Shown here: positions 2,181 to 36,896 of the stretch, piece after piece
Layout of the letters: each line of letters begins with the position of its first letter
Position numbering within the stretch: the first letter of the stretch is position 1
Assembly (NCBI GenBank): GCA_964644845.1
Contig: CAZXXS010000078.1
Span: forward strand, 3,561 to 67,560
Direction of reading: 5' to 3'
Length of the DNA stretch: 64,000 nucleotides
Source: an uncultured Cytophagia bacterium
Lineage (GTDB): Bacteria; Zhuqueibacterota; Zhuqueibacteria; Oleimicrobiales; Geothermoviventaceae
Notes under the pieces: model-generated
What the model saw: the letters and a program-made list of their open reading frames with translations, nothing else
What the model was told of the DNA's origin: nothing
Databases searched by the model: none
Program-made: the position numbers and the translations under genes

Positions 2181-2786
2181 ATGGCACTGAAGATCGGCCA
2201 GCCGGCCCCGGGTTTCGAGGCGAAAGCCTTCTACCGGGGCAACTTCAAGAACGTGAAGCTTTCGGACTACCGTGGCAAGTGGGTGGTGCTTCTCTTCTAC
2301 CCAGGGGATTTTACCTTCGTCTGACCCACCGAATTGGCGACAGTTGCCGCCGTCTACGACAAGCTTCAATCCCTTAACGCGGAAGTTCTGGCCATCAGCG
2401 TCGACAGCCAGTTCACACACAAAGTTTGGCACGAGCAGGAGCTCTCCAAACTCGTCGAGGGAGGGATTCCCTACCCGATGCTCTCGGACACAGGCGGTAC
2501 CATCGGCTCCCTCTACGGGGTCTACGACGAGCAGGAACACGTGAACATTCGCGGACGCTTCATCGTCGACGCAGACGGCGTGTTGCAAGCCGTGGAGCTC
2601 TTGCCCCCACCCGTGGGTAGAAGCGTAAAGGAACTCGTTCGACAGCTCCAGGCGTTGCAACACACACAGCACACCGGCGAAGCGACAACGTGCGACTGGG
2701 TGCCGGGCGGCACGACGCTTAAGCCGGGTCCTGATCTGGTTGGCAACGTCTGGCAAGTCTGGCGACCGGACGTTTCGCTGGACTGA
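2181..2786 (+). CDS. prxU: Selenocysteine-containing peroxiredoxin (AhpC/TSA, PrxU-type), Sec at codon 48
   Basis: AAGGAGGT RBS, ATG 2181; frame reads [12 protein letters not shown](2322-2324)-PTE, placing UGA exactly at the peroxidatic Cys of the FTFVCPTE motif; continues in frame into ORF 2334..2786. Confidence 0.93.
2335..2352 (+). promoter_or_regulatory. Bacterial SECIS-like hairpin of peroxiredoxin 1
   Basis: TGGCGAC-AGTT-GCCGCCG begins 11 nt after UGA; 6 of 7 pairs (one A-C mismatch, one U-G). Confidence 0.6.
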
Positions 2787-3026: not shown

Positions 3027-3776
3027 ATGAACAAGACCACAGGTCGCGCAATTGCAGCCGCCATCGGGCTCTTCTTCCTCGTGGGCTTGTTCTGGCTGTC
3101 CCCGCGCACCAGCGACACCAGCTTTGCCGCTCCGCAAAAGGCAATGAAACACCAGATGGTGAAGGAGCACAAAGCGGAGCGCATGCTTGCGCGCGTAGGC
3201 AGCCAGGCACCCGATTTCGAACTTCCGGCCTACGTGAACGGCGGATTTAAGAAAATCAAGTTGTCTGACTACCGCGGCAAGTGGGTAGTGGTTTGCTTCT
3301 ACCCCGGCGACTTCACCTTCGTCTGACCGACGGAACTGACGGCGGTCGCCGTCAAATACAAAGAGCTTCAGTCGCTGGGCGTGGAGGTGCTTGCCATCAG
3401 CACCGACAGCCGCTTCTCACACAAGATCTGGCAGGAAATCGAGCTTTCCAAAATGGTTAAAGGCGGTGTTCCCTTCCCGATGCTGGCTGACCGGGGCGGA
3501 CGAGTTGGCCGCATGTACGGGGTCTACGATCCCAAGTCGGGCGTCAACATCCGCGGTCGCTTCCTCATCGATCCGGATGGGGTGATCCAGGCAATGGAGG
3601 TCTTAGCGCCGCCGGTCGGTCGCAACGTGAATGAGCTGATTCGCCAGATCAAGGCTTTCCAGTACCACCGCAAAACGGGCGAGGTCTGTCCGGCCGGCTG
3701 GGAACCCGGTAAAAAGACTCTCAAACCGGGTCCCGACCTTGTCGGTAAGGTCTGGAAGGTCTGGAAACCCGAGTAA
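3027..3776 (+). CDS. prxU: Exported or membrane-anchored selenocysteine peroxiredoxin (PrxU-type), Sec at codon 100
   Basis: AAGGAGGT RBS, ATG 3027; N-terminal hydrophobic segment [17 protein letters not shown]; [12 protein letters not shown](3324-3326)-PTE; in frame with ORF 3381..3776; resolving motif EVCPAGW. Confidence 0.93.
3337..3354 (+). promoter_or_regulatory. Bacterial SECIS hairpin of peroxiredoxin 2
   Basis: Perfect 7-bp stem TGACGGC-GGTC-GCCGTCA starting 11 nt after UGA; GGUC loop resembles the E. coli fdhF SECIS apical loop. Confidence 0.8.
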
Positions 3777-11805: not shown

Positions 11806-14265
11806 TTACTTTGCCAGCGTAACTTTTTGAATTCGAACCTCGTCGCCGAGTTTCGCGCGCACCACGTAGACCCCCGAAGGGAGATTACGCCCAGCGTTGT
11901 CCTTGCCGTTCCAACGCAAAAGGTGCTGTCCGGGCGTGAACGTCTTGTCCGCGACCATTCGCACCAGGCGTCCTCGCACATCGAACACGGCCACCTGCAC
12001 GTTTCTGGCCTCAGGCCCAGGCACGCTGAGAGTCCACTGCACACTGGGATTGAACGGGTTTGGGTAGCCAGGACTCAGCGCAAACCGCAACGGCAGAGAG
12101 GAGAAGGCTGTGGCCACGCCCGTTGGCAGACGGCGCGCCACCATCAGCCGATCCAGGTAAATGGCGCCTCTCAATCTTCCGCGACACCGAAAATGGAAAC
12201 TGTCCACGTCCAGATTGGGTCCGTCAATCCTGCCGTTTCCGGTGATCCAGCCGTACACGGAGTCACGCTTCACGTCGAAGGTTACGAGCCGCCAGCCGAT
12301 CCAGTTAATCGGGATCCAGCGTGACACTTCGTAGCCGCTTTCGTTGTCATCCAGACAGAAGCGGAACTCGTTGCCGGAACCGTCCCCGAAAATGTAGACC
12401 TCCAGGACATCGCTGGGGCCGAACTTACCGGGCGTGGCCAGCGGATCGTGGATGTCGTCGAAGAAAACCCGGATAAAACCGCTTGTGTCAGCGAACTGGT
12501 ACTTGAGACGAGCTGCACCCTCGCCGAACAGAACGTGCTCGGTACTGATTTCAAAGCTCGTGGACTCCGGCACTGTGCCGCTCGTACTGCCGGACCACTC
12601 CGGATCGTGCCAGTTGGTCAGGTACTCGAAGTCGTCGAACGTCCTCAAGACGAAATTTTCGTCGGCTACGCGGAAACGCCACACCGTGTTCTCCTGCACT
12701 GGCAAGCCGGTTGTGTCGCGCAAGGTTGTGAAAGCACGCGCGATGAAGCGTCCACCGGGCTCAAAACCCTCGGTCGGCACAAACGCAACTGTGCTGCTGT
12801 CGCCGTAAACATCAAGCACCAGACTGCCCGCTACCGCGTGGCGCAGTACGTCGATCACGTTGAAAGCGTCCAGAGTCACCGTCGCGGAATCAAGAACCTT
12901 GTTGAACGCGGCGGAAACCACGCCGTTCGGACTCGGCATGGTGTCGCCGTCAGCAGGCCAGTTCCAGAACAGACGCGCTCGGCTGTTTTCCCGGCTTGCT
13001 GTTTCAAACACAAGGGCAAAGGGATCACCCGCCACGCCGTCTCCGTTTCCGTCAATCGCTCGCCCACCCAGATCTCGTGCCGTCGTATCCACGGTCACCT
13101 GGTAGAGCGTGCCGTACTGTAACAGCCCATCCGGTTTGAAGCGCAGCACCCTGCCCTGATTCAACCAGTAGAACGAACCGTTCACCGTTGGGGAGATCGA
13201 AAAAGCCGCTTCGACCGAGGGGCGGTTCATGGGCCGACTGAACTTGATGCGTACGTCTGACGTGACTGGCACACCCTCGGCGCCAGGCGTGGGACTGGTA
13301 GCCAGGACCAGTGGCGGCACATTGGAGGTGAGTCGAAAATCGCGAAAAGTAAAGGTGTCTTCAGGCACCACAACCACTGTGGTGTCGGGGTCGTAGTCTT
13401 TCCGCGAAGCAACCAGCGTGTACGTGCCGGGTTCCAGGCCGTCCCAAGCGTAGTAGCCATTCGAGTTGTCATCGGTCACGTACTGAAGACCAGCCTCCAA
13501 GAGGGACACAGTGGCTCCGTTCAGTGGTGTGTTGCTTTCGGTGTCGTAAAGGATTCCCGCCAGAGCTCCCGTAGGGATTGTTCCGGCGTCGTAGTACTCA
13601 AGGAACGAATGGTACAGGGCGCGCGCCTCGAAACGCAGGAAATCCGGGTTCTTGAGCTTGGCCTCCTCCACAGGGTTGTCGTGAAATGTAGCCTCGGACA
13701 ACTCGCCCGGCATGGTCAGATCATTCAGCACACCCAGATTCCAGCCGCCGTTGGGCCCGCCGTAGAATGACCAGTCGCCTCGGGCCATCCAGCCCGACGT
13801 ACGTAGCCCTTCGTAAATCGTGCGAGCCATGATTTCACTCATCACGTCGGCCTGTCCGGGCCACTGCGGCCCCAGCGAACTGGAGGAGGTGTGTAGTTCT
13901 TCGTAGAGCACCAGCGTAAAGCGGTGCTGACCGTTGTAGGCATTGTGGTGAATCGAGTGGAACCAGTCGACCCCGTTTCGGTTCGCGATGTCTTCCCGCT
14001 GGGACAGGGTGGGGTTGCTGTTGGTTCGCGTCAGGATCACCGTGTCGGCGCCCGCGCTGTTCAGATAGTCGCGCAGGTAAAGCGCCACCCGCAGGTTGAT
14101 CACATGCTCGTACACCCCCGTTGGACCGTGATTGGCATTCCCCGGGCCGTGCCCCGGGTCAAGGCAAAAACTCAGGCCCGAAAGATCTGGCTCGGTCGCC
14201 AGCGCCGTCGTCACCAGACCCGCAGTAATCAAAGCAAGAAGCGTTGTGGACTTCGTAAGGTGCAT
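11806..14265 (-). CDS. Secreted multidomain N-acetylmuramoyl-L-alanine amidase (Amidase_3, carboxypeptidase-regulatory-like domain, two SbsA/Big_5 Ig domains, CBM/CIA30-like domain, FlgD/T9SS-type CTD), paralog B
   Basis: Signal peptide; Zn ligands DPGHG...EHVIN...SIHHNA and catalytic ELSEATF; IKFSRPM Ig motif; YPNPFN...VFDVRGRLVR...WNGKDNAGRNLPSGVY CTD. Confidence 0.9.
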   Translation of the reverse strand: MHLTKSTTLLALITAGLVTTALATEPDLSGLSFCLDPGHGPGNANHGPTGVYEHVINLRVALYLRDYLNSAGADTVILTRTNSNPTLSQREDIANRNGVDWFHSIHHNAYNGQHRFTLVLYEELHTSSSSLGPQWPGQADVMSEIMARTIYEGLRTSGWMARGDWSFYGGPNGGWNLGVLNDLTMPGELSEATFHDNPVEEAKLKNPDFLRFEARALYHSFLEYYDAGTIPTGALAGILYDTESNTPLNGATVSLLEAGLQYVTDDNSNGYYAWDGLEPGTYTLVASRKDYDPDTTVVVVPEDTFTFRDFRLTSNVPPLVLATSPTPGAEGVPVTSDVRIKFSRPMNRPSVEAAFSISPTVNGSFYWLNQGRVLRFKPDGLLQYGTLYQVTVDTTARDLGGRAIDGNGDGVAGDPFALVFETASRENSRARLFWNWPADGDTMPSPNGVVSAAFNKVLDSATVTLDAFNVIDVLRHAVAGSLVLDVYGDSSTVAFVPTEGFEPGGRFIARAFTTLRDTTGLPVQENTVWRFRVADENFVLRTFDDFEYLTNWHDPEWSGSTSGTVPESTSFEISTEHVLFGEGAARLKYQFADTSGFIRVFFDDIHDPLATPGKFGPSDVLEVYIFGDGSGNEFRFCLDDNESGYEVSRWIPINWIGWRLVTFDVKRDSVYGWITGNGRIDGPNLDVDSFHFRCRGRLRGAIYLDRLMVARRLPTGVATAFSSLPLRFALSPGYPNPFNPSVQWTLSVPGPEARNVQVAVFDVRGRLVRMVADKTFTPGQHLLRWNGKDNAGRNLPSGVYVVRAKLGDEVRIQKVTLAK

Positions 14266-14286: not shown

Positions 14287-15237
14287 TTACTTCGCAGTCA
14301 CATCCAGTACGTAGATCGCGTTTGTAGAATCGTCGTGGAAGACCAGTCGTCGGCCATCAGGCGACCAGCAGGGGTCCATTTCCAGCATGTCCGCAGTGCG
14401 AGTCAGCTGAACGCGTTCAGAACCGTCGGGTCGCACAGCGTAAAGGTCAGAAGCCAAGTAGCGGTGGCCGTCGTCCTTCGCAACGAAGAACACAATCCAC
14501 TGCGAGTCCGGCGACCAACGTGGCCGGTTTCCAGGACCCAGGTCCACCAACGTCTTTCCGTCTGAGCTCACCACGAAAAGGTCTCCGCCAGAGACCTCAA
14601 AAACTAACAGTTGTCCGTCAGGAGACGGGCGAAGATTCAACACGTAGCCTTCGCCGTCAGCTTGGAAGAGGGGTTTCTCTCGCCCGACACGGAAAATCGC
14701 ACTCCCTTTTGCGTAGAACGTTCGTTCCGGTACCCGGGAAAGAGCTTCAACTTTGCCGTTGGAACCAACCGTCCAAGACTCGAGCTCCTCGGCGGCAAAA
14801 AGCACAACCTGATTGTCTCCCACCCAACGAGGCACCCCAGCCATCCGTTTCCGCCAGTCCGTCAGCTGAGTAACGCGTCCGGTGGCCACATCGATGATCT
14901 GGACGGCGTGTTCGCGCCTCTTGTTGCGCTCGCGACTAACCCGGCACAGAATCGCGCGACCGTCGGGCGACCAAGACATGCCAAATCCTGCCCCAAGAGC
15001 ATCGGTCAGTTGCCTGACCCCCGAACCATCCGCTGCCACAAGCCAGATGCCCTGGTAGTTCGGCCGTGTGGCAGCAATCCAGCGGCCGTCTGGGCTCCAC
15101 ACCGGGTGCGCCAGGGCTTCTCCCTCCGGGGAGAGTCTGACAGGCGGTCCAACTGCCCGCAGCTTGCCGAAAGCGTTCACGCTCAGGGCTAAACCGAGCA
15201 GAAAAACAAGAGCAGATCCCGTACGCCGAAAACTCAT
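14287..15237 (-). CDS. Exported TolB-like beta-propeller (PD40 repeats)
   Basis: Signal peptide; repeated WSPDG/PSPDG/WSPDS motifs. Confidence 0.88.
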   Translation of the reverse strand: MSFRRTGSALVFLLGLALSVNAFGKLRAVGPPVRLSPEGEALAHPVWSPDGRWIAATRPNYQGIWLVAADGSGVRQLTDALGAGFGMSWSPDGRAILCRVSRERNKRREHAVQIIDVATGRVTQLTDWRKRMAGVPRWVGDNQVVLFAAEELESWTVGSNGKVEALSRVPERTFYAKGSAIFRVGREKPLFQADGEGYVLNLRPSPDGQLLVFEVSGGDLFVVSSDGKTLVDLGPGNRPRWSPDSQWIVFFVAKDDGHRYLASDLYAVRPDGSERVQLTRTADMLEMDPCWSPDGRRLVFHDDSTNAIYVLDVTAK

Positions 15238-15881: not shown

Positions 15882-18356
15882 CTACCGAAGCAGGACCAGC
15901 CGTCCGATTTGAATCTGCCCACCAACGGTCAGACGGGCAAAGTAGATGCCGCTGGGTAGGTCCTGTCCACTTCCGTCGCGACCGTCCCAGGTGAAACGGT
16001 GCCAGCCTTCCGTCGTCTGGCCACGCCACAGGGTTGCCACCTGTTGACCAAGCAGGTTGATTACCTCGAGCACACCTTCACGTCCCACCGCTCCCGGTCC
16101 AATCCAAAACTTGATTTCCGTAGCGCTTCGAAAAGGGTTCGGCCAGTTGGGTGCCAACCGAAATTCTTTGGGTGCGCTCTCTCGCCGTTGGCGGTCGTGC
16201 CAGAGAACGGCTGTGGCGGGAGAACGAGCCAGTAGTACCAGGCGGTCGAATCCCAGTTCACCGGCAAGCTGCCCAGCTTGCTCAAGGCGCAACCCCAGGA
16301 AGAGCAAGCTGTCGGCATCGGCGCGCCCGTTGCCACCGGGGCCAGGAACAAGGTCCTCACCGACACACACTTCCAGCGATTTCCAGCCTGCCCAGTCGAT
16401 CTTGTTCGCTACGGAGTACTCCTCGCCGTCCAGATCCTGGAAGACCAAGCAGAGCACGTTGCCACTCTGGTCACCGCGCACGGCAACCGTCAGCATCTCA
16501 TCGCGTGCCACCTTTTCCGGAAGCCAGGCGGCCGGTTTCTCCCGGTTGATGAGCAACACGGAGCCAGGAACGTCGAAACGGTAGCGAAGCAATCCGTACA
16601 CGCTGTCACCGTACGCAGGTCCACGGACCAGCTCGAAGGCGGTACTGTCGACACAAATCGCAGAGCTGTCGCCCTCGACTTCCAGCGACCAGGCCAAGGT
16701 GTCGGCAGCAAAATCGTCCAGAATCACCGGGTACAACGGCCTGGACGAAGCGTAGAAATCCCACCGAAAGTAGTTCTCAAGCTGTCCCCCGCTCAGGTCG
16801 CTCAGATTCTTCATCACAGCGACTTTGTAGCCGAGACCCGCTTCCAGATCGCGAAGGGCAAACACAGCAAGTCTTCCGCCAACGAAGCCACGACTCGAGT
16901 CGATCATTTGCTCCGAGTACTGCACTGCCACGGGCACGCGGATGCGGCGGTGGCTCATCAGAAGCACGGCGTCGTCGGTCACAACGTGGGGATCCAGACG
17001 TTTGTTGAAAAGCACCCAGAGAATGTGCCCGGGCACAACGCCCGTGTCCTCACGTGCAGGCTCGAAGTCAATCACGGCGAGCGCAGCTGTGTCCAGCGGC
17101 GCTGTGTGAAAGCGGACTTCAAAATCCCCACCGGGCTGTCCGTCCGCGTCACCGTCCAACGGGTGCCCGTAGCGGTCCGTGCAAGCCTCCGTCAACAAAA
17201 GCCTGTACTCTGTGTCAAAAGCGAACCGCGTGCGGGGTGTAAAAACGACCTGGCGAGAATCATCGGACCATTTCCACCGGCCGTGAACCGGCGGCTCCAG
17301 GGCCAACCCCTGTTCGACCGAGAGCGGATCCATCGGACGGCTGAAACGCACGGCCAAGGAAGTTTGGACGGGGACATCCCTTGCTCCGTCCTGTGGGTAA
17401 ACGGTCTCCACAGTGGGTGGCGTCACGGGAACGAGACGGAAATCAAGGAACGCAAATTGGCCCCGGCTCACGCGCACAGTGTCCCGAGCTGGCTCGTGCA
17501 AGGAGTCGACTGCCAGAACTTCGTACAGGCCCGGGTCAAGATCCGCCAAAACGTACAATCCGTTGCCGAAATGATCGGTGGTCAACGTTGTGTCCAGAGG
17601 CATCACACGAACACTGGCTCCGTCCAGTGGCCGACCCGCGTCCATGTCCGAAACAATGCCTGCTAAGGCACCGGTTATCGGGGGTTCTTGGCCGTAGTAC
17701 TGCAGGAAGCTTTGCAGCAACGCCTTCGCTTCGAGCTGCAAGAATCCCTGGTTACGAAGTTTACGTTCTTCAACGGGGTGATCAAAAAACGTTGCTTCGG
17801 ACAGTTCGCCCGGCATGGTCAGATCGTTCAGCACGCCAAGGCGCGAAGGGATGCCGTAAAAGGTGTAGTCGCCGTACACGCGTGCCGACTCTGTTCGCAG
17901 AGCGTGGTAGATCTCCGCTGCCATGATGTGACTCATGACGTCGGCCTGGCCGGGCCACTGCGGCCGGTGATTTGCCAGCTCCTCGTAAAGCAACAGCGTG
18001 TAGCGCGCACTCCCGTGCTCTGCGTTGTGATGAATCGAATGAAACCAGTCGACACCGGCCCGGTTGGCGATGTCTTCGCGCTGGCTCAGCGACGGGTTCG
18101 TGTGAATTCGCGTGAGGATGACAGTGTCGGCCCCCGCTGCTCTCAGGTAGTCGCGAAGCTTGAGCGCTACTTGGAGGTTGATTGTGTGTTCGTGCAGGCC
18201 CGTTGGTCCCTGATTCTGATTTCCCGGACCATGCCCGGGATCCACGCAAATGCTGATGCCTTCCAGCGACTGGCCGAGACCTGCGGTTGCAGGTACAAAC
18301 AGTCCCATCCCGAGCAGAAAAGCAAGCGTACGTTTGCAAAAATCGGAACGCGGCAT
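15882..18356 (-). CDS. Secreted multidomain N-acetylmuramoyl-L-alanine amidase, paralog A (same architecture as 11806..14265)
   Basis: Signal peptide; DPGHG...EHTIN...SIHHNA...ELSEATF; VRFSRPM Ig motif; WPNPF...WDGRDGSGQDLPSGIY CTD. Confidence 0.9.
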   Translation of the reverse strand: MPRSDFCKRTLAFLLGMGLFVPATAGLGQSLEGISICVDPGHGPGNQNQGPTGLHEHTINLQVALKLRDYLRAAGADTVILTRIHTNPSLSQREDIANRAGVDWFHSIHHNAEHGSARYTLLLYEELANHRPQWPGQADVMSHIMAAEIYHALRTESARVYGDYTFYGIPSRLGVLNDLTMPGELSEATFFDHPVEERKLRNQGFLQLEAKALLQSFLQYYGQEPPITGALAGIVSDMDAGRPLDGASVRVMPLDTTLTTDHFGNGLYVLADLDPGLYEVLAVDSLHEPARDTVRVSRGQFAFLDFRLVPVTPPTVETVYPQDGARDVPVQTSLAVRFSRPMDPLSVEQGLALEPPVHGRWKWSDDSRQVVFTPRTRFAFDTEYRLLLTEACTDRYGHPLDGDADGQPGGDFEVRFHTAPLDTAALAVIDFEPAREDTGVVPGHILWVLFNKRLDPHVVTDDAVLLMSHRRIRVPVAVQYSEQMIDSSRGFVGGRLAVFALRDLEAGLGYKVAVMKNLSDLSGGQLENYFRWDFYASSRPLYPVILDDFAADTLAWSLEVEGDSSAICVDSTAFELVRGPAYGDSVYGLLRYRFDVPGSVLLINREKPAAWLPEKVARDEMLTVAVRGDQSGNVLCLVFQDLDGEEYSVANKIDWAGWKSLEVCVGEDLVPGPGGNGRADADSLLFLGLRLEQAGQLAGELGFDRLVLLARSPATAVLWHDRQRRESAPKEFRLAPNWPNPFRSATEIKFWIGPGAVGREGVLEVINLLGQQVATLWRGQTTEGWHRFTWDGRDGSGQDLPSGIYFARLTVGGQIQIGRLVLLR

Positions 18357-25456: not shown

Positions 25457-27814
25457 ATGGCCATTTCTGAGAAAATGCGCACCTACATCCAGTTTGAAAT
25501 CCCCGAGGAGGCGATTTTCAATCCGGACCGCTGGGCGTTTGCCTACGTAACCACACTGACGGGTTGGGACTCCGGGCCGTCCGGCCTCAGTACCAGCCTG
25601 CGTCTGAGCGACGGATCTGAGGCGTGGCTCGACGTTTCCGTTTGGGCACCCGGTGCACTCCGTTTCCGGTTTGGCAGGCCAGGCAGGCACTGGCCCGATT
25701 GTTCGGAAATGCTCACCGGGCATCCAGAGCCCGCACCCCACAAAGTCGAAAGCGGCGGCAAAACACTGGTTTTTCGGGCGCCTGGCGTGGAGGTCAGGAT
25801 CGAACAGGACCCCTGGCAATTGGAAATTCGCGACGAACGAGGCCACGTGCTTCAGCGGACGCACGACGTCGGCCCATTGAAGCAGCATTTCCCCCTTTAC
25901 CCGCTGGGTCTGCAGCGGGAACAGAGGACGAACCGTGTCCGGGTGTTTGCCAGTTTCGACCTCTGGCCGGATGAAGGCCTTTTCGGACTCGGTGAAAAGT
26001 TCGGGCCTTTGAACAAACGGGGACAGCGTGTTGTCTCCTGGGATTCGGACACGACCAACTGTTCCACTGACCGCGCGTACAAGAACGTCCCTTTTCTGAT
26101 GTCAACTCGCGGCTACGGGCTGTTTCTGCACGACAGTCACCGCATCGAGTACGAACTGGGCAGCTGGAGTTTCACGGCCACCAGTTTCGCCGTGGAGAAC
26201 GATGGCCTGGAATGGTTCTTCATCTACGGTCCCGAACTGCGGCAAGTTCTGCGACGGTACACGGCTTTGACAGGCAGAGCCCCAGTGCCACCTCTCTGGA
26301 GCTTTGGCCTCTGGATGTCTCGTTTCGGCTACAAGAATCGGGCAGAGCTGGAAGAAATCGCCACCAAACTGCGCCGGCACCGCATTCCCACCGACGTGTT
26401 GCATTTGGACCCTTTTTGGCTTCACAAGGATCGCTACTGTGACCTCGAGTGGGACGAAACGGCCTTTCCAAACCCGGAGGAGATGCTTCAAGGCCTTGCC
26501 CAGCAGGGTTTCAAGGTGTGCCTCTGGGAACAGCCGTTTGTACCCGTGAGCTCGTCGATGTACCGCGAAGGGGCAGAAAAGGGCTACTTTGTTCGAGACG
26601 GGGAGGGAAACATCCTTCTCATCCACGACTTCGAGGAAAAAGAAACAGCGGTCGTGGATTTCACCAATCCCGAAGCCGTTCGGTGGTACCAGGACAAACA
26701 CCGTCGTCTGCTCAAACAGGGCGTCGCCGTTTTCAAAACCGACATGGGCGAAGCCGTGCCGCGGGAAGCCGTGTTCGCCGACGGCCGGCATGGCGACGAA
26801 ATGCACAATCTCTACCCGCTGCTGTACAATCGTACGGTCTGGGAAACTGTCGCAGAAAAATGGAACGGCTGTGGGATCGTTTGGGGACGCTCGGGCTACG
26901 CGGGGAGTCAGCGCTACCCGGTGAACTGGGGTGGCGACTCATTCAGCACGTTCAGCGAGATGGCCGCTGTGCTCCGCGGGGGGCTCAGTTACGGACTTTC
27001 CGGCGTCCCGTTCTGGAGTCAGGACATCGGTGGCTTTCAGGGGGGAAAACCCAGTCCAGAGCTCTACGTACGCTGGGCCCAGTGGGGACTGCTGAACTCG
27101 CACAGTCGCTGCCACGGCGTGCAGCCTCGTGAACCCTGGGAGTACGGCGAAGAGGCAGAACGCGTGTTCCGAACATTCGCCGAACTGCGCTACAGCCTCT
27201 TGCCCTACATTTGGAGTGCAGCACACGAGGCGTCCGAAACGGGGCTTCCTGTAATGCGACCGCTTGTTCTCGAGTTTCAAAAGGATCCGACCACCTGGCA
27301 CATTGACACACAGTACCTTTTCGGGCCGTGGCTTCTTGTCGTACCTGTGCTGGAAGCAGGCGGGTCGGTGCGCTTCTACTTGCCTCCAGGTTTTTGGCTG
27401 GACTTCTGGACGGGCGAAGTTCTGGAAGGTCCCTCCTGGCACGAACGCGTCGTGCCCCTGGACAAGATTCCGCTTTTCCTCCGCGAAGGCGCGCTCGTAA
27501 GCAGGGCACCCGTAGGCCAGTTCGTCGGCGAAAAACCGTGGTCTCCGCTGGAACTGGAAATGTTTGTCACCTCAAGCTCCGAGTGGACGCTCAGAGACAG
27601 CACAGGACGCCCTCAACGGGTACGGGTGCAGGTGGCGGAAGGTCTTGCCGACATCCGTTGGGACCCGCTACCTACAAACGTCCACCTGGTGTGGCGTGGG
27701 CCAGTTCGGGTTGACGCCTTTCGACTGAACGGTTTACTACCGGAAGCCCAACCCCAGACACTTCCCTCGGGGGAAAATCGGGTCAACGCTGTGTTTGACC
27801 AACACACGAGGTAG
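25457..27814 (+). CDS. Glycoside hydrolase family 31 (YicI/alpha-xylosidase-like)
   Basis: FGLGEKFGPLNKRG, AYKNVPF, FKTDMGE nucleophile, WGGD acid/base, SQDIGGF, RYSLLPYI, QYLFG motifs. Confidence 0.93.
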   Translation: MAISEKMRTYIQFEIPEEAIFNPDRWAFAYVTTLTGWDSGPSGLSTSLRLSDGSEAWLDVSVWAPGALRFRFGRPGRHWPDCSEMLTGHPEPAPHKVESGGKTLVFRAPGVEVRIEQDPWQLEIRDERGHVLQRTHDVGPLKQHFPLYPLGLQREQRTNRVRVFASFDLWPDEGLFGLGEKFGPLNKRGQRVVSWDSDTTNCSTDRAYKNVPFLMSTRGYGLFLHDSHRIEYELGSWSFTATSFAVENDGLEWFFIYGPELRQVLRRYTALTGRAPVPPLWSFGLWMSRFGYKNRAELEEIATKLRRHRIPTDVLHLDPFWLHKDRYCDLEWDETAFPNPEEMLQGLAQQGFKVCLWEQPFVPVSSSMYREGAEKGYFVRDGEGNILLIHDFEEKETAVVDFTNPEAVRWYQDKHRRLLKQGVAVFKTDMGEAVPREAVFADGRHGDEMHNLYPLLYNRTVWETVAEKWNGCGIVWGRSGYAGSQRYPVNWGGDSFSTFSEMAAVLRGGLSYGLSGVPFWSQDIGGFQGGKPSPELYVRWAQWGLLNSHSRCHGVQPREPWEYGEEAERVFRTFAELRYSLLPYIWSAAHEASETGLPVMRPLVLEFQKDPTTWHIDTQYLFGPWLLVVPVLEAGGSVRFYLPPGFWLDFWTGEVLEGPSWHERVVPLDKIPLFLREGALVSRAPVGQFVGEKPWSPLELEMFVTSSSEWTLRDSTGRPQRVRVQVAEGLADIRWDPLPTNVHLVWRGPVRVDAFRLNGLLPEAQPQTLPSGENRVNAVFDQHTR

Positions 27815-33644: not shown

Positions 33645-35075
33645 CTAAAACCGGCTGTTCAATCGAAATTCGACACCCCGAAATTCGGGCACGAAAGCGC
33701 AAACGCCCCCGGAACAGAGCAAACCCGCCCGCCTTGAGCCAATCGTCAGCACAGCCTGGTGCCGTCCGTCCAGGGTAGCCGAAAAAACGAGAGCCGGAAG
33801 CGTCTTCCGCTCCTCAATCGGATTGGAACTCCGGTCGATTTGCACTGCAACAGAGTAAGAGGAGGCTTTCGCCAGATTGAACGTCACCAACTGGTTCCAG
33901 TAGTTAGGTCCATCCACCAGGCGTACACGCTGGAGCTGAACGTCCAGGAATGTGCTCCAGACTGTGGTCAGGTAGCGTTCTACTTCAATTGCCCCCGTCC
34001 GCACGCTCTCCCGTCCGAACATGTGGTCCGACGTTTCATCCAGCACAGCCCTGAGATTCCACTGTCCAAGTTGTTCGTAGCGGACGTCCAGAAACCACTC
34101 GTGGTAACGCGAATGAGGAGCGTTCGTGTGGGTAGCTCCACGATTAACAAGCACGACCACGGACCATCCCGTTGCCGGAGCAGACGTGAATTGAACCTGA
34201 AACCCACGTTCATCCCGCGGCCACAGCAAATGCGTGTGCCGATTCAGGAGAGCCACGGAGTGCGTCGGCACCAACGGCGGAGGATTGTTGAACGGGAGAT
34301 CGAAATTCAGGTAGTCTTTCCACTCGAAACTGAAAGCCCCAAGCGGCAGAGCGACCGACGCTGCCGTGTAGAAGGCGTGCGAAGCAGCACCTCTGAACCA
34401 GACTCCCACGCTCCGCCAGGCGTATTCGGACGTCACGTTGAGCAAATCACCGAGCCAGTGTGCGCGCACGGCCCCAAAATCCGCTCGATCAAAAGCAAAC
34501 CGGTCGGAAGGGTACCAGCGCATCGCCGCCGTACCAACCTTAAACCTCGGCATCAGCCAAAGGTTGACGTCCGCTCCTCTGACCACGTTCTCGCGTCGTC
34601 CGGTCTCTGGACTGAGGGGTTGCGCAGAGAAAAAACGCCCATCTGCCCGGGAACCCTGATACTCCAGCCACACGCCGTCCGCGTTCCGATCCTGGACGAA
34701 TGAACGCTCGATTCGATCCAAAACCAGCGTGCGCAGCTCGAAAGATTGGAAGAGCAAGCCTTGCCCGATCTTCTCGTAGTAATTGCCGAAACGCATCCGC
34801 AGTCCACCGTGACGGACCTCCACGAAACGCTGACTAATTTTGCCGAACGAACCCAACTGCGGGGTGGACTGGGCCATCTCCAACCGGAAACCAAAACGAA
34901 TATTCTGCGCCCAGAAATCTGTGTCCAGCCAGTCGCGCAACACATCCGAATTGTCCGCCGTCGACCTGCTGTACTCAAGGCGGTTGGCAGCAAGCACGTT
35001 GTCAAATGGCTGTGCCCGTCCCCACGTTGGGAAAACTACCAGTCCGATTCCCGCCACTGTCCACCAGAGCTTCAT
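33645..35075 (-). CDS. DUF6029-like outer-membrane beta-barrel with a C-terminal CSGGVC loop
   Basis: Signal peptide (start ATG 35075); GNYYEKIGQGLLFQSFE motif; C-terminus RRAGLLCSGGVCAFVPEFRGVEFRLNSRF with terminal Phe (BAM-type signal). Confidence 0.8.
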   Translation of the reverse strand: MKLWWTVAGIGLVVFPTWGRAQPFDNVLAANRLEYSRSTADNSDVLRDWLDTDFWAQNIRFGFRLEMAQSTPQLGSFGKISQRFVEVRHGGLRMRFGNYYEKIGQGLLFQSFELRTLVLDRIERSFVQDRNADGVWLEYQGSRADGRFFSAQPLSPETGRRENVVRGADVNLWLMPRFKVGTAAMRWYPSDRFAFDRADFGAVRAHWLGDLLNVTSEYAWRSVGVWFRGAASHAFYTAASVALPLGAFSFEWKDYLNFDLPFNNPPPLVPTHSVALLNRHTHLLWPRDERGFQVQFTSAPATGWSVVVLVNRGATHTNAPHSRYHEWFLDVRYEQLGQWNLRAVLDETSDHMFGRESVRTGAIEVERYLTTVWSTFLDVQLQRVRLVDGPNYWNQLVTFNLAKASSYSVAVQIDRSSNPIEERKTLPALVFSATLDGRHQAVLTIGSRRAGLLCSGGVCAFVPEFRGVEFRLNSRF

Positions 35076-35223
35076 CCGTCGCCGTACTCTGTGTGCGTTA
35101 TTTGGCCGCTGTCCTTTCACCTCAGGTTTCCCGTAAAGATCAACGCGTCGCTACAGAAGCACTTTTCACCTGTCAACAGCCTCGTCACCCTCATCAACAA
35201 GTCGAAAGCGAAGTCGAAGTCGT

Positions 35224-35751
35224 TCACTCTTCTGTCCGCTGCCAGTCTTTCAAGGCCCGAATCACTGCCTCCTCAAGCGTTTTTTCATCCCCAGGCGAAT
35301 AACCCACGTGCTCCCAGAGAACCTGCAAATCCTTCCCGATGAGCAGGCTCGTGGGCAACACACTCACGCGAAACAAACGCGACAATTCCTGATTTCGATC
35401 AAGGATCACGGTAAAGCGGAAACGTCGTCCGCGTACGAGCGAGCGAACACGGGAGGCTGTGGCCTCACCGTCCTCGCTGATGGCCAGCAGCGAAAAACCG
35501 TCCCCTTTGAAGCGGGCGAAAATCTCGTCCAGGTAGGGCAATTCCTTTTGACAGGGAGCGCACCAGGTGGCCCAGAAGTTCAGAAGGACGGGTCCCTTCT
35601 CTGTGAGCTCACTCAAGTGCACACGTTTCCCATCGAGGGAACGTGCTCGAAGATCAGGAACGCGTCTCAAATCCCCAGCTGCGAACCCGGGCGCCCTACC
35701 CAGGAGAAGAACAACGAGGGCCAAAACAACCGTCCGGCTAAGAGTTCGCAT
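35224..35751 (-). CDS. Exported TlpA-family thiol-disulfide oxidoreductase
   Basis: Signal peptide; LLNFWATWCAPC active site; cis-Pro VLPT. Confidence 0.93.
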   Translation of the reverse strand: MRTLSRTVVLALVVLLLGRAPGFAAGDLRRVPDLRARSLDGKRVHLSELTEKGPVLLNFWATWCAPCQKELPYLDEIFARFKGDGFSLLAISEDGEATASRVRSLVRGRRFRFTVILDRNQELSRLFRVSVLPTSLLIGKDLQVLWEHVGYSPGDEKTLEEAVIRALKDWQRTEE

Positions 35752-35963: not shown

Positions 35964-36785
35964 CTAACGGAACACCGCAACGCGTCTCGTCGCCACGTCT
36001 TGACCGCACCTTGCGCGGATCAAGTAGACCCCTGCAGGAACTTGGTTACCGCTTCGGTCCCTGCCATCCCAGACAACACTTCTTCCACCAGATCCCACCG
36101 GCCCCCGAAAAAGGAATCGAATTTTCCGGCCCCGGAGATCAAACACCGCCACTTCTACAGGCTCATTTCGAGAGGCCCAGATGCGCACTCGCGCGGCGCT
36201 GGATCTTCCATCCGGCACAAAGGGATTTGGGTAGACGGCACTCAGCTGGAAATTTTCGGGCGCAGCCCTGGGCGTCTCATCCTTCACACCCGTCTGCGGG
36301 AGCCAGGTCTCAATGGTCTGGATGAGCGCCGCTTTGTCGTAGCCGTAGTTGGTGTAACGAACTACCCAATCTGGACTGAGGACCACATTGTGAGGAATGT
36401 ACCCCATCCCGTACTGCCTCCACACCTTCCCCTGGGAGTCCAGTAGAATTTGGTACCTTAGACCAAACTGGTTCCTGAAGGTTTCCACCGTAGAGGCAGC
36501 CTCCTTCAGGTTGATTCCAATGACCTGAAGCCCCTTGTCTTTGTAAACCTCAAAGATGTCTTTCTGTAAGCTCGGAGCCTCCGAGCGGCAGGCAGGTCAC
36601 CACGTCGCAAAGAAATTCAGTAAAACAACTTTTCCTTCGTAGGCTTTCAGCCGCACGTCGGCACCACGAAGGTTCTTGAGAACGAAATCGCGAACGGTGT
36701 CGCCGACGGCGTACTGTGCTTTGCTTGTGACAGGCAATGACAGAAGAAGAGCCACCCCCGCTGCTACGACCCTACCTCCTCGCAT
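35964..36785 (-). CDS. Selenocysteine redoxin (TlpA/AhpC fold, UPAC active site) fused to a FlgD/T9SS-type CTD; Sec at codon 63
   Basis: ORFs 36597..36785 and 35964..36488 share a frame; bridging sequence reads LLNFFATW-TGA-PACRSEAPSLQKDIFEVYKDKGLQVIGIN; signal peptide; cis-Pro YIPH; CTD YPNPF...VFDLRGRKIR...WDGRDRSGNQVPAGVY. Confidence 0.9.
36570..36586 (-). promoter_or_regulatory. Bacterial SECIS hairpin of the Sec redoxin
   Basis: Minus strand GCTCGGA-GGC-TCCGAGC, a perfect stem starting 11 nt after the UGA at 36597-36599. Confidence 0.78.
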
Positions 36786-36896
36786 GTTTTCCTCCCTCTT
36801 GCTGGTGAATACCCGCTTTGCTTAACGAACCACGTCGACGAGATCGATATTCCCGCTAATCGAAAATTCAGAGCCACCCTGTTCGCTCGGTGAAGG

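What the first reader, a model, noticed from the sequence alone, without database searches (positions are those of the whole stretch)
35964..36785. Hidden selenoprotein carrying a surface-secretion (T9SS/FlgD-type) C-terminal domain
Seen: the ORF track splits this gene at TGA 36597-36599, but read-through gives FFATW-U-PAC, the thioredoxin CxxC position, with a perfect hairpin 11 nt downstream. The protein has a signal peptide and the same CTD as the two amidases. Established: Sec often replaces the N-terminal Cys of redox CxxC motifs; most characterised bacterial selenoproteins are cytoplasmic or periplasmic. Inference: a cell-surface selenoenzyme that standard pipelines would annotate as two fragments.
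Basis: partly seen in the sequence, partly recalled or inferred. Interest (0 to 1): 0.8.

Follow-up and report, generated by a model that had tools for sequence, protein, structure and literature searches.

The report
Secreted-type selenoprotein disulfide oxidoreductase gene
This is one real gene, wrongly split in two by gene callers, that encodes a selenocysteine-containing thiol-disulfide oxidoreductase with an export signal and a type IX secretion tail; the enzyme family is already known to use selenium, but the secretion tail on it does not appear to have been described.

Summary
Window 35964-36785 (-) is a single 273-codon gene with TGA at codon 63 (36597-36599). It reads FFATW-U-PAC, and a perfect 7-bp hairpin (36570-36586) begins 11 nt after the TGA.

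- **Conservation:** The TGA is conserved in 20 homologous loci, down to about 28% protein identity, from MAGs labelled Calditrichota, KSB1, Krumholzibacteriota and Deltaproteobacteria. In 79 other homologs the same column is always Cys.
- **Hairpin:** It covaries (5 of 8 pairs have compensatory changes; 91% of cells are paired) and is absent from the Cys forms (p=6e-11).
- **Selenocysteine use:** Two PrxU peroxiredoxin genes in the same window also carry TGA at their catalytic Cys, so the organism very likely decodes Sec.
- **Domains:** Signal peptide, then a TlpA/ResA-like thioredoxin fold, a linker, and a T9SS type-A C-terminal domain (TIGR04183). All 19 tail-bearing Sec relatives and both window amidases match the same model.
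- **Annotation:** Public annotations split the gene into 62-aa and 174-aa fragments.

The catalytic domain belongs to the long-known "Prx-like thiol:disulfide oxidoreductase (UxxC)" selenoprotein family. The news is therefore the secretion-tail architecture and a conserved three-gene module, not a new selenoenzyme. Surface location, the Sec machinery and the T9SS machinery could not be tested. Interest is moderate.

The parts
35964..36785 (-). Complete selenoprotein gene: 273 codons including Sec63, with stop TAG at 35964-35966
   Evidence: In-frame purifying selection is seen on both sides of the TGA, including the 36 codons between the TGA and the GTG start chosen by ORF callers. Against L001 that stretch shows 10 synonymous and 3 nonsynonymous differences.
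36791..36796 (-). Shine-Dalgarno-like GGGAGG, 5 nt upstream of the ATG
   Evidence: Read directly from the sequence.
36717..36785 (-). Signal peptide, residues 1-23, with predicted cleavage SKA|QY
   Evidence: By inspection: basic n-region, hydrophobic core, small residues at -3 and -1. Homologs show the same layout, with Gln at +1 in most of them. No signal-peptide predictor was available.
36333..36707 (-). TlpA/ResA-like thioredoxin-fold domain, residues 27-151
   Evidence: Pfam AhpC-TSA 1.7e-25 and Redoxin 4.6e-23. The closest solved structure is ResA 4nmu_A, E=1.3e-21.
36597..36599 (-). UGA = Sec63, first position of the U-P-A-C redox motif. It aligns with the N-terminal Cys of the ResA CxxC.
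   Evidence: The column is TGA in 20 loci and TGT/TGC in 79.
36588..36590 (-). Cys66 codon, the resolving residue of UxxC
   Evidence: Invariant in alignment A1.
36570..36586 (-). bSECIS-like hairpin GCUCGGA-GGC-UCCGAGC with a G-containing apical loop. It begins 11 nt after the UGA.
   Evidence: Covariation analysis gives 91.4% of cells paired, 5 of 8 pairs with compensatory changes and 28 double-change cells against 7.3 in shuffles. Slid registers give 14-53% paired. Cys-form homologs lack the hairpin (3.05 of 7 pairs against 6.5 of 7, p=6e-11).
36237..36332 (-). Linker, residues 152-183. It is variable and is replaced by 200-500 residue inserts in long-form relatives.
   Evidence: Alignments; Pfam scan of the long forms.
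35967..36236 (-). T9SS type-A C-terminal sorting domain, residues 184-273, with the YPNPF...G..V...GVY...K/R pattern
   Evidence: TIGR04183 above cutoff. Pfam FlgD_ig 29.1 bits. It aligns with the tails of both amidases and of 18 Sec-form homologs.
35224..35751 (-). Downstream Cys paralog: a TlpA/ResA-like protein (WATWCAPC) with a signal peptide and no secretion tail
   Evidence: It sits immediately downstream of the Sec gene in the window and in L001, L003, L010 and L011.
33645..35120 (-). DUF6029 protein, third gene of the conserved module; the called start is probably 35075. It is predicted to be a large all-beta outer-membrane barrel with an invariant C-x4-C near the C-terminus.
   Evidence: Pfam DUF6029. 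Only 12 homologs were found. The AF2 model has pLDDT 80 and pTM 0.74 with about 27 predicted strands. Its best fold matches are 24-stranded usher pores at TM about 0.5-0.57. Synteny is shown.

Best explanation
The locus encodes one 273-residue precursor of a selenocysteine-containing extracytoplasmic thiol-disulfide oxidoreductase.

**Shown here.**
- UGA63 occupies the position of the nucleophilic N-terminal Cys of a TlpA/ResA-type CxxC motif, giving U-P-A-C.
- A conserved, covarying stem-loop lies in the coding sequence 11 nt downstream. It has the layout of a bacterial SECIS element: a short stem and a small apical loop containing G.
- The protein has an N-terminal signal peptide, a thioredoxin fold, a linker and a T9SS type-A C-terminal domain.

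**Inferred.**
- SelB bound to Sec-tRNA(Sec) binds the hairpin and inserts Sec at UGA63.
- The precursor crosses the inner membrane through SecYEG, and signal peptidase I cuts after Ala23.
- The C-terminal domain then targets the folded enzyme to a type IX secretion system, which releases it or attaches it to the cell surface.
- There, Sec63 attacks substrate disulfides (or other oxidised sulfur species) and forms a selenenylsulfide with Cys66. Selenium would give faster exchange and resistance to irreversible over-oxidation where no repair system exists.
- The gene works together with the adjacent periplasmic Cys-TlpA paralog and the DUF6029 outer-membrane barrel. The three form a conserved module.
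For: 1. **Read-through.** The ORF and motif are. In-frame purifying selection spans the TGA.
2. **Conservation.** The TGA is conserved in 20 loci from 98% down to about 28% identity, and 79 other homologs have Cys at that column.
3. **Hairpin.** It is conserved with compensatory changes, including changes that alter the encoded amino acids. It is absent from the Cys forms.
4. **Not an error.** The same TGA appears in two further assemblies of the same organism.
5. **UGA is still a stop.** It is the commonest stop codon of the large ORFs, 19 of 39, so there is no genome-wide reassignment.
6. **Sec trait.** Two PrxU genes in the window have TGA at the peroxidatic Cys. They score 316 and 379 bits on NF040737, cutoff 270.
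7. **Domains.**. All 19 Sec-form tails and both amidase tails hit TIGR04183. Long-form relatives score 30-44 bits on Pfam Por_Secre_tail, cutoff 27.
8. **Module.** The gene order Sec-TlpA-CTD, Cys-TlpA, DUF6029 recurs across 34-82% identity in Calditrichota, KSB1 and JdFR-76 MAGs.
Against: - No selA, selB, selC or selD was found among the window ORFs scanned (46 of at least 150 aa) or by the tRNA and Rfam scans. The rest of the genome could not be searched.
- No T9SS component (PorU, PorV, SprA, PorK-N) was seen in the window. I found no paper documenting T9SS in Calditrichota.
- The window protein's own TIGR04183 score is only just above cutoff (23.9 against 23).
- Rfam has no matching SECIS model, and the single-sequence folding energy is unremarkable.
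- No reductant is known for a thioredoxin-fold enzyme outside the outer membrane.
- Selenium incorporation and localisation are untested.
Confidence: 0.8

Rival explanations
1. The protein is a selenoprotein, but it is not secreted. The C-terminal beta-sandwich would be a FlgD-like Ig domain used for periplasmic or outer-membrane association in a lineage without a working T9SS, making this an ordinary periplasmic TlpA-like selenoprotein.
For: - Pfam scores FlgD_ig (29.1 bits) above Por_Secre_tail for the window protein.
- The TIGR04183 score is marginal, 23.9 against a cutoff of 23.
- No T9SS gene is in the window.
- No literature on T9SS in Calditrichota was found.
- TlpA/ResA enzymes normally depend on periplasmic reduction via DsbD or CcdA (own knowledge).
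Against: - All 21 tails tested match TIGR04183.
- Relatives score well above the cutoffs on TIGR04183 and Por_Secre_tail.
- The domain sits at the extreme C-terminus behind variable linkers and extracellular-type modules such as LVIVD and HYDIN-like Ig, as in genuine T9SS cargo.
- The same tail is on two peptidoglycan amidases in the window, and on a GH31 hydrolase next to the Sec gene in related locus L004.
Confidence: 0.15
2. UGA63 is read through without selenium, for example by near-cognate Trp or Cys insertion, or it simply terminates translation and leaves two independent products.
For: - UGA followed by C is a leaky termination context (own knowledge).
- The Sec machinery was not observed directly.
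Against: - A position-specific, covarying hairpin is found only in the TGA forms.
- Homologs have Cys at the column and never Trp.
- The 62-aa N-terminal piece would lack the active site, and the 174-aa piece would lack a signal peptide and half of the fold.
- The 36 codons between the TGA and the called GTG start are conserved in frame.
- PrxU selenoprotein genes are present in the same window.
Confidence: 0.03
3. The gene is a pseudogene, or the TGA is an assembly or sequencing error.
For: Gene callers split the gene.
Against: - An identical TGA appears in two further assemblies and in 19 diverged homologous loci.
- Purifying selection acts on both sides of the TGA.
Confidence: 0.01

Closest known systems
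Prx-like thiol:disulfide oxidoreductase selenoprotein family (pfam00578, UxxC/UxxU; prototype from Geobacter, catalogued in PMC1088965 and PMC9312934)
   Same: - AhpC-TSA/Redoxin thioredoxin fold.
- Sec at the first position of a thioredoxin-like UxxC motif.
- Cys-containing homologs are widespread.
- The SECIS hairpin lies directly downstream inside the ORF.
- A deltaproteobacterial Sec form without a tail (L072, LLNFFATWUPSC) was retrieved by the same query.
   Different: - The described members are single-domain proteins. This clade adds a T9SS type-A C-terminal domain and, in many members, 200-500 residue extracellular-type inserts.
- It occurs in Calditrichota, KSB1 and Krumholzibacteriota MAGs.
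- It is embedded in a conserved module with a Cys paralog and a DUF6029 barrel.
ResA / TlpA / CcmG extracytoplasmic thiol-disulfide oxidoreductases (for example Bacillus ResA, PDB 4nmu and 1st9)
   Same: - Best solved-structure match, E=1.3e-21.
- The W-C-x-x-C-x-x-E-x-P active-site pattern and the cis-Pro region (IPHN against LPTS) align.
- Both are exported by a signal peptide.
   Different: - Sec replaces the nucleophilic Cys.
- NCBIfam ResA scores 104 bits against a cutoff of 170, so this is not a ResA ortholog.
- No cytochrome c maturation genes are nearby.
- The protein carries a secretion tail.
NCBIfam selenoprotein models: ResA-like WAxxUGC motif protein (NF041054), TUGYCR-motif redoxin (NF053656), and the UGC-containing TlpA family (PMC13188914)
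   Same: TlpA/ResA-like thioredoxin folds that use Sec.
   Different: - The motif here is W-U-P-A-C, not UGC or TUGYCR.
- Scores are 34 against 300 and 18 against 100, far below the cutoffs.
T9SS type-A cargo proteins (TIGR04183 / Por_Secre_tail), for example gingipains and many Bacteroidota hydrolases
   Same: - N-terminal Sec-type signal peptide, often with Gln at +1.
- Functional domain, then a linker, then an approximately 80-residue C-terminal beta-sandwich with the conserved motifs.
   Different: - The cargo is a selenoenzyme. The literature searches found no T9SS cargo with Sec.
- The host lineage lies outside Bacteroidota and its T9SS machinery is unverified.
PrxU, the selenocysteine peroxiredoxin of Eubacterium acidaminophilum type (NF040737)
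   Same: A Sec-containing thiol-dependent redox enzyme of the same superfamily. Two copies are encoded in this window.
   Different: - PrxU has the TxxU peroxidatic motif and is a true 2-Cys peroxiredoxin.
- The finding has a thioredoxin-like UxxC motif and a secretion tail.

Membership tests
Bacterial selenoprotein (UGA-Sec recoding) | An in-frame UGA that aligns with Cys in homologs | tested here: met
   The column is TGA in 20 loci and TGT/TGC in 79. No other residue occurs.
Bacterial selenoprotein (UGA-Sec recoding) | A bSECIS stem-loop immediately downstream of the UGA, with a small apical loop containing G | tested here: met
   A 7-bp stem starts at +11 with loop GGC. It is conserved and covaries and is absent from the Cys forms. 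The criterion is as described in PMC1088965. Rfam holds no matching model.
Bacterial selenoprotein (UGA-Sec recoding) | selA, selB, selC (tRNA-Sec) and selD present in the genome | not testable with these tools
   None was found among the window ORFs scanned or by the tRNA and Rfam scans. The rest of the MAG could not be queried. Indirect support comes from two PrxU genes with TGA at the catalytic site in the same window.
Bacterial selenoprotein (UGA-Sec recoding) | Selenium actually incorporated into the protein | not testable with these tools
   Requires 75Se labelling or mass spectrometry.
Prx-like thiol:disulfide oxidoreductase selenoproteins (pfam00578, UxxC) | AhpC-TSA domain with Sec in a thioredoxin-like UxxC motif | tested here: met
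   PF00578 scores 89.8 bits, cutoff 26. The motif is U63-P-A-C66. The family definition is taken from PMC9312934 and PMC1088965.
Prx-like thiol:disulfide oxidoreductase selenoproteins (pfam00578, UxxC) | Direct homology to the prototype (Geobacter WP_010940744.1) | not tested
   The prototype sequence could not be fetched. A deltaproteobacterial Sec form (L072) was recovered by the query at E=9e-20.
ResA (NF002854) / DsbE-CcmG (TIGR00385) / TlpA (NF047696) orthologs | A score above the curated cutoff of the family model | tested here: not met
   Scores are 104 against 170, 54.7 against 123 and 44.3 against 230. It shares the fold and superfamily but is not an ortholog of any of the three.
T9SS type-A cargo | C-terminal TIGR04183 / Por_Secre_tail domain at the extreme C-terminus | tested here: met
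   The full protein scores 23.9 bits and the isolated tail 26.6 bits, cutoff 23. All 21 tails tested match. Relatives score 30-44 bits on Pfam PF18962.
T9SS type-A cargo | N-terminal Sec-dependent signal peptide | tested here: met
   By inspection only: MRGGRVVAAGVALLLSLPVTSKA|QY. The layout is conserved in homologs. No predictor was available.
T9SS type-A cargo | T9SS machinery (PorK/L/M/N, SprA/Sov, PorU, PorV) encoded by the genome | not testable with these tools
   None was found among the window ORFs scanned. Genome-wide search was not possible. No literature was found.
ResA-like WAxxUGC (NF041054) and TUGYCR (NF053656) selenoproteins | The signature motif and a score above cutoff | tested here: not met
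   Scores are 34.1 against 300 and 18.4 against 100. The motif is WUPAC.
FlgD flagellar hook-capping protein | A full FlgD architecture, meaning the N-terminal FlgD domain plus the Ig-like domain | tested here: not met
   Only the Ig-like segment matches (PF13860 at residues 208-258). The FlgD equivalog scores 24 against 230.

The most novel reading that the evidence does not exclude
The conserved three-gene module would be a redox relay across the outer membrane. It comprises the T9SS-tailed Sec-TlpA, the periplasmic Cys-TlpA, and the approximately 24-stranded DUF6029 outer-membrane barrel with its invariant C-x4-C.

In this reading, reducing equivalents delivered to the periplasm (DsbD/CcdA type) pass through the Cys paralog and the barrel to a surface-exposed selenoenzyme. 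That enzyme would reduce extracellular disulfides, polysulfides or oxidised detrital proteins for these sediment and vent protein degraders. This would be the first bacterial cell-surface selenoenzyme system.
Probability: 0.12. Interest if true: 0.8.

Novelty: new variant of a known kind. Interest (0 to 1): 0.45.

Why it matters
**Annotation.** This gene, at least 19 relatives and two PrxU genes in the same window are recorded in public databases as truncated fragments. The selenoproteomes of Calditrichota, KSB1 and Krumholzibacteriota are therefore under-counted.

**Biology.** The searched literature describes bacterial selenoproteins as cytoplasmic or periplasmic redox enzymes. Here a whole clade carries type IX secretion tails, sometimes inside large multi-domain surface-type proteins. 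That suggests selenium chemistry is deployed outside the outer membrane, where resistance to over-oxidation and high reactivity without a dedicated reductase could be the selective advantage.

**Testability.** The conserved link to a periplasmic Cys paralog and an uncharacterised outer-membrane barrel gives a concrete, testable module.

Tried and rejected
- **Rfam.** Neither the gathering threshold nor a permissive E-value scan around the TGA gave a SECIS family hit. Rfam has no general model for this element, so this says nothing either way.
- **Single-sequence folding.** The z-score is not significant, so I relied on comparative analysis instead.
- **Sec and T9SS genes in the window.** I scanned 46 ORFs with Pfam or NCBIfam and ran a tRNA scan. 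Nothing was found.
- **Extending beyond the window ends.** Two exact-protein look-ups were not on record, probably because the called starts differ. I abandoned this.
- **Literature.** Searches for selenoprotein with type IX secretion or T9SS, and for Calditrichota or Caldithrix with T9SS or selenocysteine, found nothing relevant.
- **Promoter and terminator scan of the module.** Hits were no more frequent than in shuffles.
- **Naive scan for other TGA-interrupted ORFs.** It was very noisy in this G+C-rich window (182 candidates). Only the two PrxU genes stood up.
- **Rejected readings.**
  - FlgD function is rejected, because only the Ig-like segment matches.
  - Orthology to ResA, CcmG or TlpA is rejected, because all scores fall below the cutoffs.
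  - Membership of the WAxxUGC and TUGYCR selenoprotein families is rejected on both motif and score.
  - Genome-wide UGA reassignment is rejected, because TGA is the commonest stop codon.
Full report
**1. Observation**

On the minus strand a single reading frame runs from ATG 36785, preceded by GGGAGG, to TAG 35964-35966. The only interruption is TGA at 36597-36599, codon 63. Mechanical ORF listing therefore yields a 62-aa piece (36597-36785) and a 174-aa piece that starts at a GTG 36 codons after the TGA.

Read-through gives ...KVVLLNFFATW-U-PAC-RSEAPSL... Ten nucleotides after the TGA comes GCUCGGA-GGC-UCCGAGC, at 36570-36586. It is a perfect 7-bp stem with a 3-nt loop.

Taken alone the hairpin is weak evidence.
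- The 76-nt segment folds no better than shuffles (z=0.59).
- A perfect 7-bp hairpin 8-20 nt after a given TGA has a chance of about 1% in this 59% G+C window. It occurs at 14 of 1766 TGA trinucleotides.

**2. Domains**

- **Thioredoxin fold.** Pfam finds AhpC-TSA (1.7e-25) and Redoxin at residues 27-151, and FlgD_ig at 208-258.
- **Secretion tail.** NCBIfam TIGR04183, "T9SS type A sorting domain", matches residues 184-269. It scores 23.9 bits against a cutoff of 23, and 26.6 bits on the isolated tail.
- **Closest solved structure.** This is Bacillus ResA (4nmu_A, E=1.3e-21). Sec63 aligns with the N-terminal, nucleophilic Cys of the ResA CxxC, Glu69 with the conserved active-site Glu, and IPHN with the cis-Pro region.
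- **Signal peptide.** The N-terminus MRGGRVVAAGVALLLSLPVTSKA|QY is a typical signal peptidase I signal by inspection. Homologs share the layout, mostly with Gln at +1. From my own knowledge, this resembles the Q-rule described for Bacteroidota signal peptidase I substrates.

**3. Comparative test of the TGA**

The protein search returned, as its five best hits, only C-terminal fragments covering 60-68% of the query. Their contigs all show the same split into a 62-68 aa AhpC-TSA fragment plus a tail-bearing fragment. In every case translating through a TGA restores W-U-x-x-C.

A scan of one genome per species added more loci. By tblastn, the column aligned to residue 63 is TGA in 20 loci and TGT/TGC in 79, and never anything else. 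The TGA forms are as follows.
- **Main clade.** It has the motif FFATW-U-xxC-xSEAP and comes from MAGs labelled Calditrichota, Calditrichaceae, KSB1 and "Deferribacteres JdFR-76".
- **Second clade.** It has the motif FFANW-U-PVCGPEF and comes from Krumholzibacteriota MAGs.
- **Caldithrix sp. form.** A single locus, L017.
- **Tail-less form.** A deltaproteobacterial locus, L072.

Three further checks support translation through the TGA.
- The same TGA is present in two further assemblies of the window organism, one ENA and one NCBI (GCA_054028295.1).
- Codon-level comparison with L001 and L002 shows purifying selection on both sides of the TGA. This includes the 36 codons that ORF callers leave untranslated, where L001 shows 10 synonymous and 3 nonsynonymous differences.
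- TGA is the commonest stop among the large ORFs (19 of 39), so UGA is not reassigned genome-wide.

**4. The hairpin is a conserved RNA element**

Across 19 TGA forms aligned in register, the 8-pair helix behaves as follows.
- 91.4% of cells are paired, against 75.6% in shuffles and 14-53% when the 3' arm is slid by 1-3 columns.
- 5 of 8 pairs show compensatory double changes.
- 28 cells carry double changes, against 7.3 expected. None of 500 shuffles reached this.

Several compensations require amino-acid changes on both arms, for example Ser/Asn to Ala/His in L014. This points to selection on the RNA rather than on the protein.

The L017 form was left out of this alignment. It has its own hairpin, shifted by one nucleotide, with an AGGUA loop.

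At the same positions, Cys-form homologs pair only 3.05 of 7 positions, against 6.5 of 7 in the TGA forms (Mann-Whitney p=6e-11).

The layout matches the bacterial SECIS features described in PMC1088965: a short spacer, a stem, and a small apical loop containing G. Rfam has no model that detects it.

**5. Does the organism decode Sec?**

No selA, selB, selC or selD lies in the window, and the rest of the genome was out of reach.

While scanning for other interrupted ORFs I found two tandem peroxiredoxin genes.
- **PrxU-A**, 2181-2786 (+), has TGA at 2322-2324.
- **PrxU-B**, 3027-3776 (+), has TGA at 3324-3326.

Both read [14 protein letters not shown], so the TGA sits exactly at the peroxidatic Cys. 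With U replaced by C they score 316 and 379 bits on NCBIfam NF040737 (PrxU, the selenocysteine peroxiredoxin), cutoff 270. Hairpins follow both TGAs.

Three Cys-aligned in-frame TGAs in 64 kb make Sec decoding by this organism very likely.

**6. Architecture of the clade and context**

- **Tails.** All 19 tail-bearing Sec forms match TIGR04183.
- **Long forms.**
  - Many Sec forms are long, 458-789 aa.
  - Extra modules lie between the thioredoxin fold and the tail, or ahead of the fold.
  - L019, for example, has LVIVD repeats, a HYDIN/DUF1573-type Ig domain, the AhpC-TSA domain with Sec, and then the tail.
  - Pfam Por_Secre_tail scores 30-44 bits in four of the five relatives scanned, cutoff 27.
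- **Cys counterpart.** Cys forms with the same architecture also exist (P0007, FFASWCVPC plus Por_Secre_tail).
- **Module.** The short form found in the window sits in a conserved module of Sec-TlpA-CTD, a signal-peptide Cys-TlpA paralog (35224-35751) and DUF6029 (33645-35120). The same order recurs in L001, L003, L010 (KSB1) and L011, at 34-82% identity.
- **DUF6029.**
  - It has only 12 detectable homologs and an invariant C-x4-C near the C-terminus.
  - Its AF2 model (pLDDT 80, pTM 0.74) is all-beta with about 27 predicted strands.
  - The best fold matches are 24-stranded usher translocation pores and other outer-membrane barrels, at TM 0.5-0.57 with about 8% identity.
  - I read it as a large outer-membrane barrel of unknown function, not as an usher.

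**7. Mechanism**

*Shown:* a Sec codon at the nucleophilic position of a TlpA/ResA-type active site, a covarying SECIS-like element, and the order signal peptide, fold, linker, T9SS type-A tail.

*Inferred:*
- SelB-dependent insertion of Sec.
- Export through SecYEG and cleavage by signal peptidase I.
- T9SS-dependent passage to the surface or the medium.
- Thiol-disulfide exchange through a Sec63-Cys66 selenenylsulfide.

The substrate and the electron donor are unknown. The linked periplasmic Cys paralog and the outer-membrane barrel hint at a coupled system, but this is speculation.

The main rival reading is that the tail does not lead to secretion in this lineage, leaving an ordinary periplasmic selenoprotein. 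I give that about 0.15. Pseudogene, sequencing error and non-Sec read-through are effectively excluded by the comparative data.

**8. Comparison with what is known**

The catalytic domain fits the "Prx-like thiol:disulfide oxidoreductase" selenoprotein family. That family is defined by pfam00578 and a UxxC/UxxU motif. It has been known since the first prokaryotic selenoproteome surveys and was already abundant in the Sargasso Sea data (PMC1088965, PMC9312934).

- It is not a member of the newer UGC, WAxxUGC or TUGYCR TlpA-like selenoprotein families.
- It is not an ortholog of ResA, CcmG or TlpA, because all scores fall below the cutoffs.

Neither the reviews I read nor the full-text searches turned up a selenoprotein carrying a T9SS sorting domain.

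I therefore class it as a new variant of a known kind. It is a known selenoenzyme family in a new secretion-tail architecture and gene context, in poorly studied FCB-group phyla.

**9. Verdict**

Its novelty is lower than claimed, and surface localisation is still an inference. Interest 0.45.

Noticed in passing
window 2181-2786 (+), TGA at 2322-2324; window 3027-3776 (+), TGA at 3324-3326: Two tandem PrxU-type peroxiredoxin genes have an in-frame TGA exactly at the peroxidatic Cys ([14 protein letters not shown]). They score 316 and 379 bits on NCBIfam NF040737, cutoff 270. The second copy has an N-terminal hydrophobic anchor or signal. Both would be annotated as fragments. They are independent evidence that the organism decodes Sec.
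   Followed up: partly
window 33645-35120 (-); also L001, L003, L010, L011: The DUF6029 gene is always found downstream of the Sec-TlpA and Cys-TlpA pair. It has only 12 homologs, in Calditrichota, KSB1 and Zixibacteria. AF2 predicts a large all-beta outer-membrane barrel whose fold resembles 24-stranded usher pores. It has an invariant C-x4-C near the C-terminus and ends in Phe.
   Followed up: partly
L016 (TGA 8119), L019 (TGA 5313), L024 (TGA 2820): A second Sec clade (FFANW-U-PVCGPEF) occurs in Krumholzibacteriota-type MAGs. The thioredoxin domain is embedded in 660-790 aa proteins with LVIVD repeats, a HYDIN/DUF1573-like Ig domain and a T9SS tail. Cys-form TlpA paralogs lie next to them.
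   Followed up: partly
L017 (TGA 3251), Caldithrix sp. MAG: A divergent 267-aa Sec form has the motif GYS-U-PSC and a T9SS tail. Its hairpin is shifted by one nucleotide and has an AGGUA loop. This may give a route to a cultivable genus.
   Followed up: no
window 36717-36719 (Ala23 codon) and homologs; also DUF6029 at about 35013: The predicted signal-peptide cleavage leaves Gln at +1 (A|QY) in most Sec-form homologs and in DUF6029 (GRA|QP). This recalls the Bacteroidota Q-rule of an N-terminal pyroglutamate. The comparison rests on my own knowledge and was not tested.
   Followed up: no
window 11806-14265 (-), 14287-15237 (-), 15882-18356 (-): Two paralogous proteins of about 820 aa flank a PD40/WD40 beta-propeller gene. 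Each has Amidase_3, a CarboxypepD_reg domain, a Big_5 domain and a T9SS tail.
   Followed up: no
L004 1-2596: In a related locus, a GH31 glycoside hydrolase with a FlgD_ig-type tail sits immediately upstream of the Sec-TlpA gene. The window's own GH31 (25457-27814) shows no tail by Pfam.
   Followed up: no
window 36869-36881 (-): A weak terminator-like hairpin lies just after the upstream NAD-binding dehydrogenase gene and before the selenoprotein gene. Such hits are no more frequent here than in shuffled sequence.
   Followed up: no
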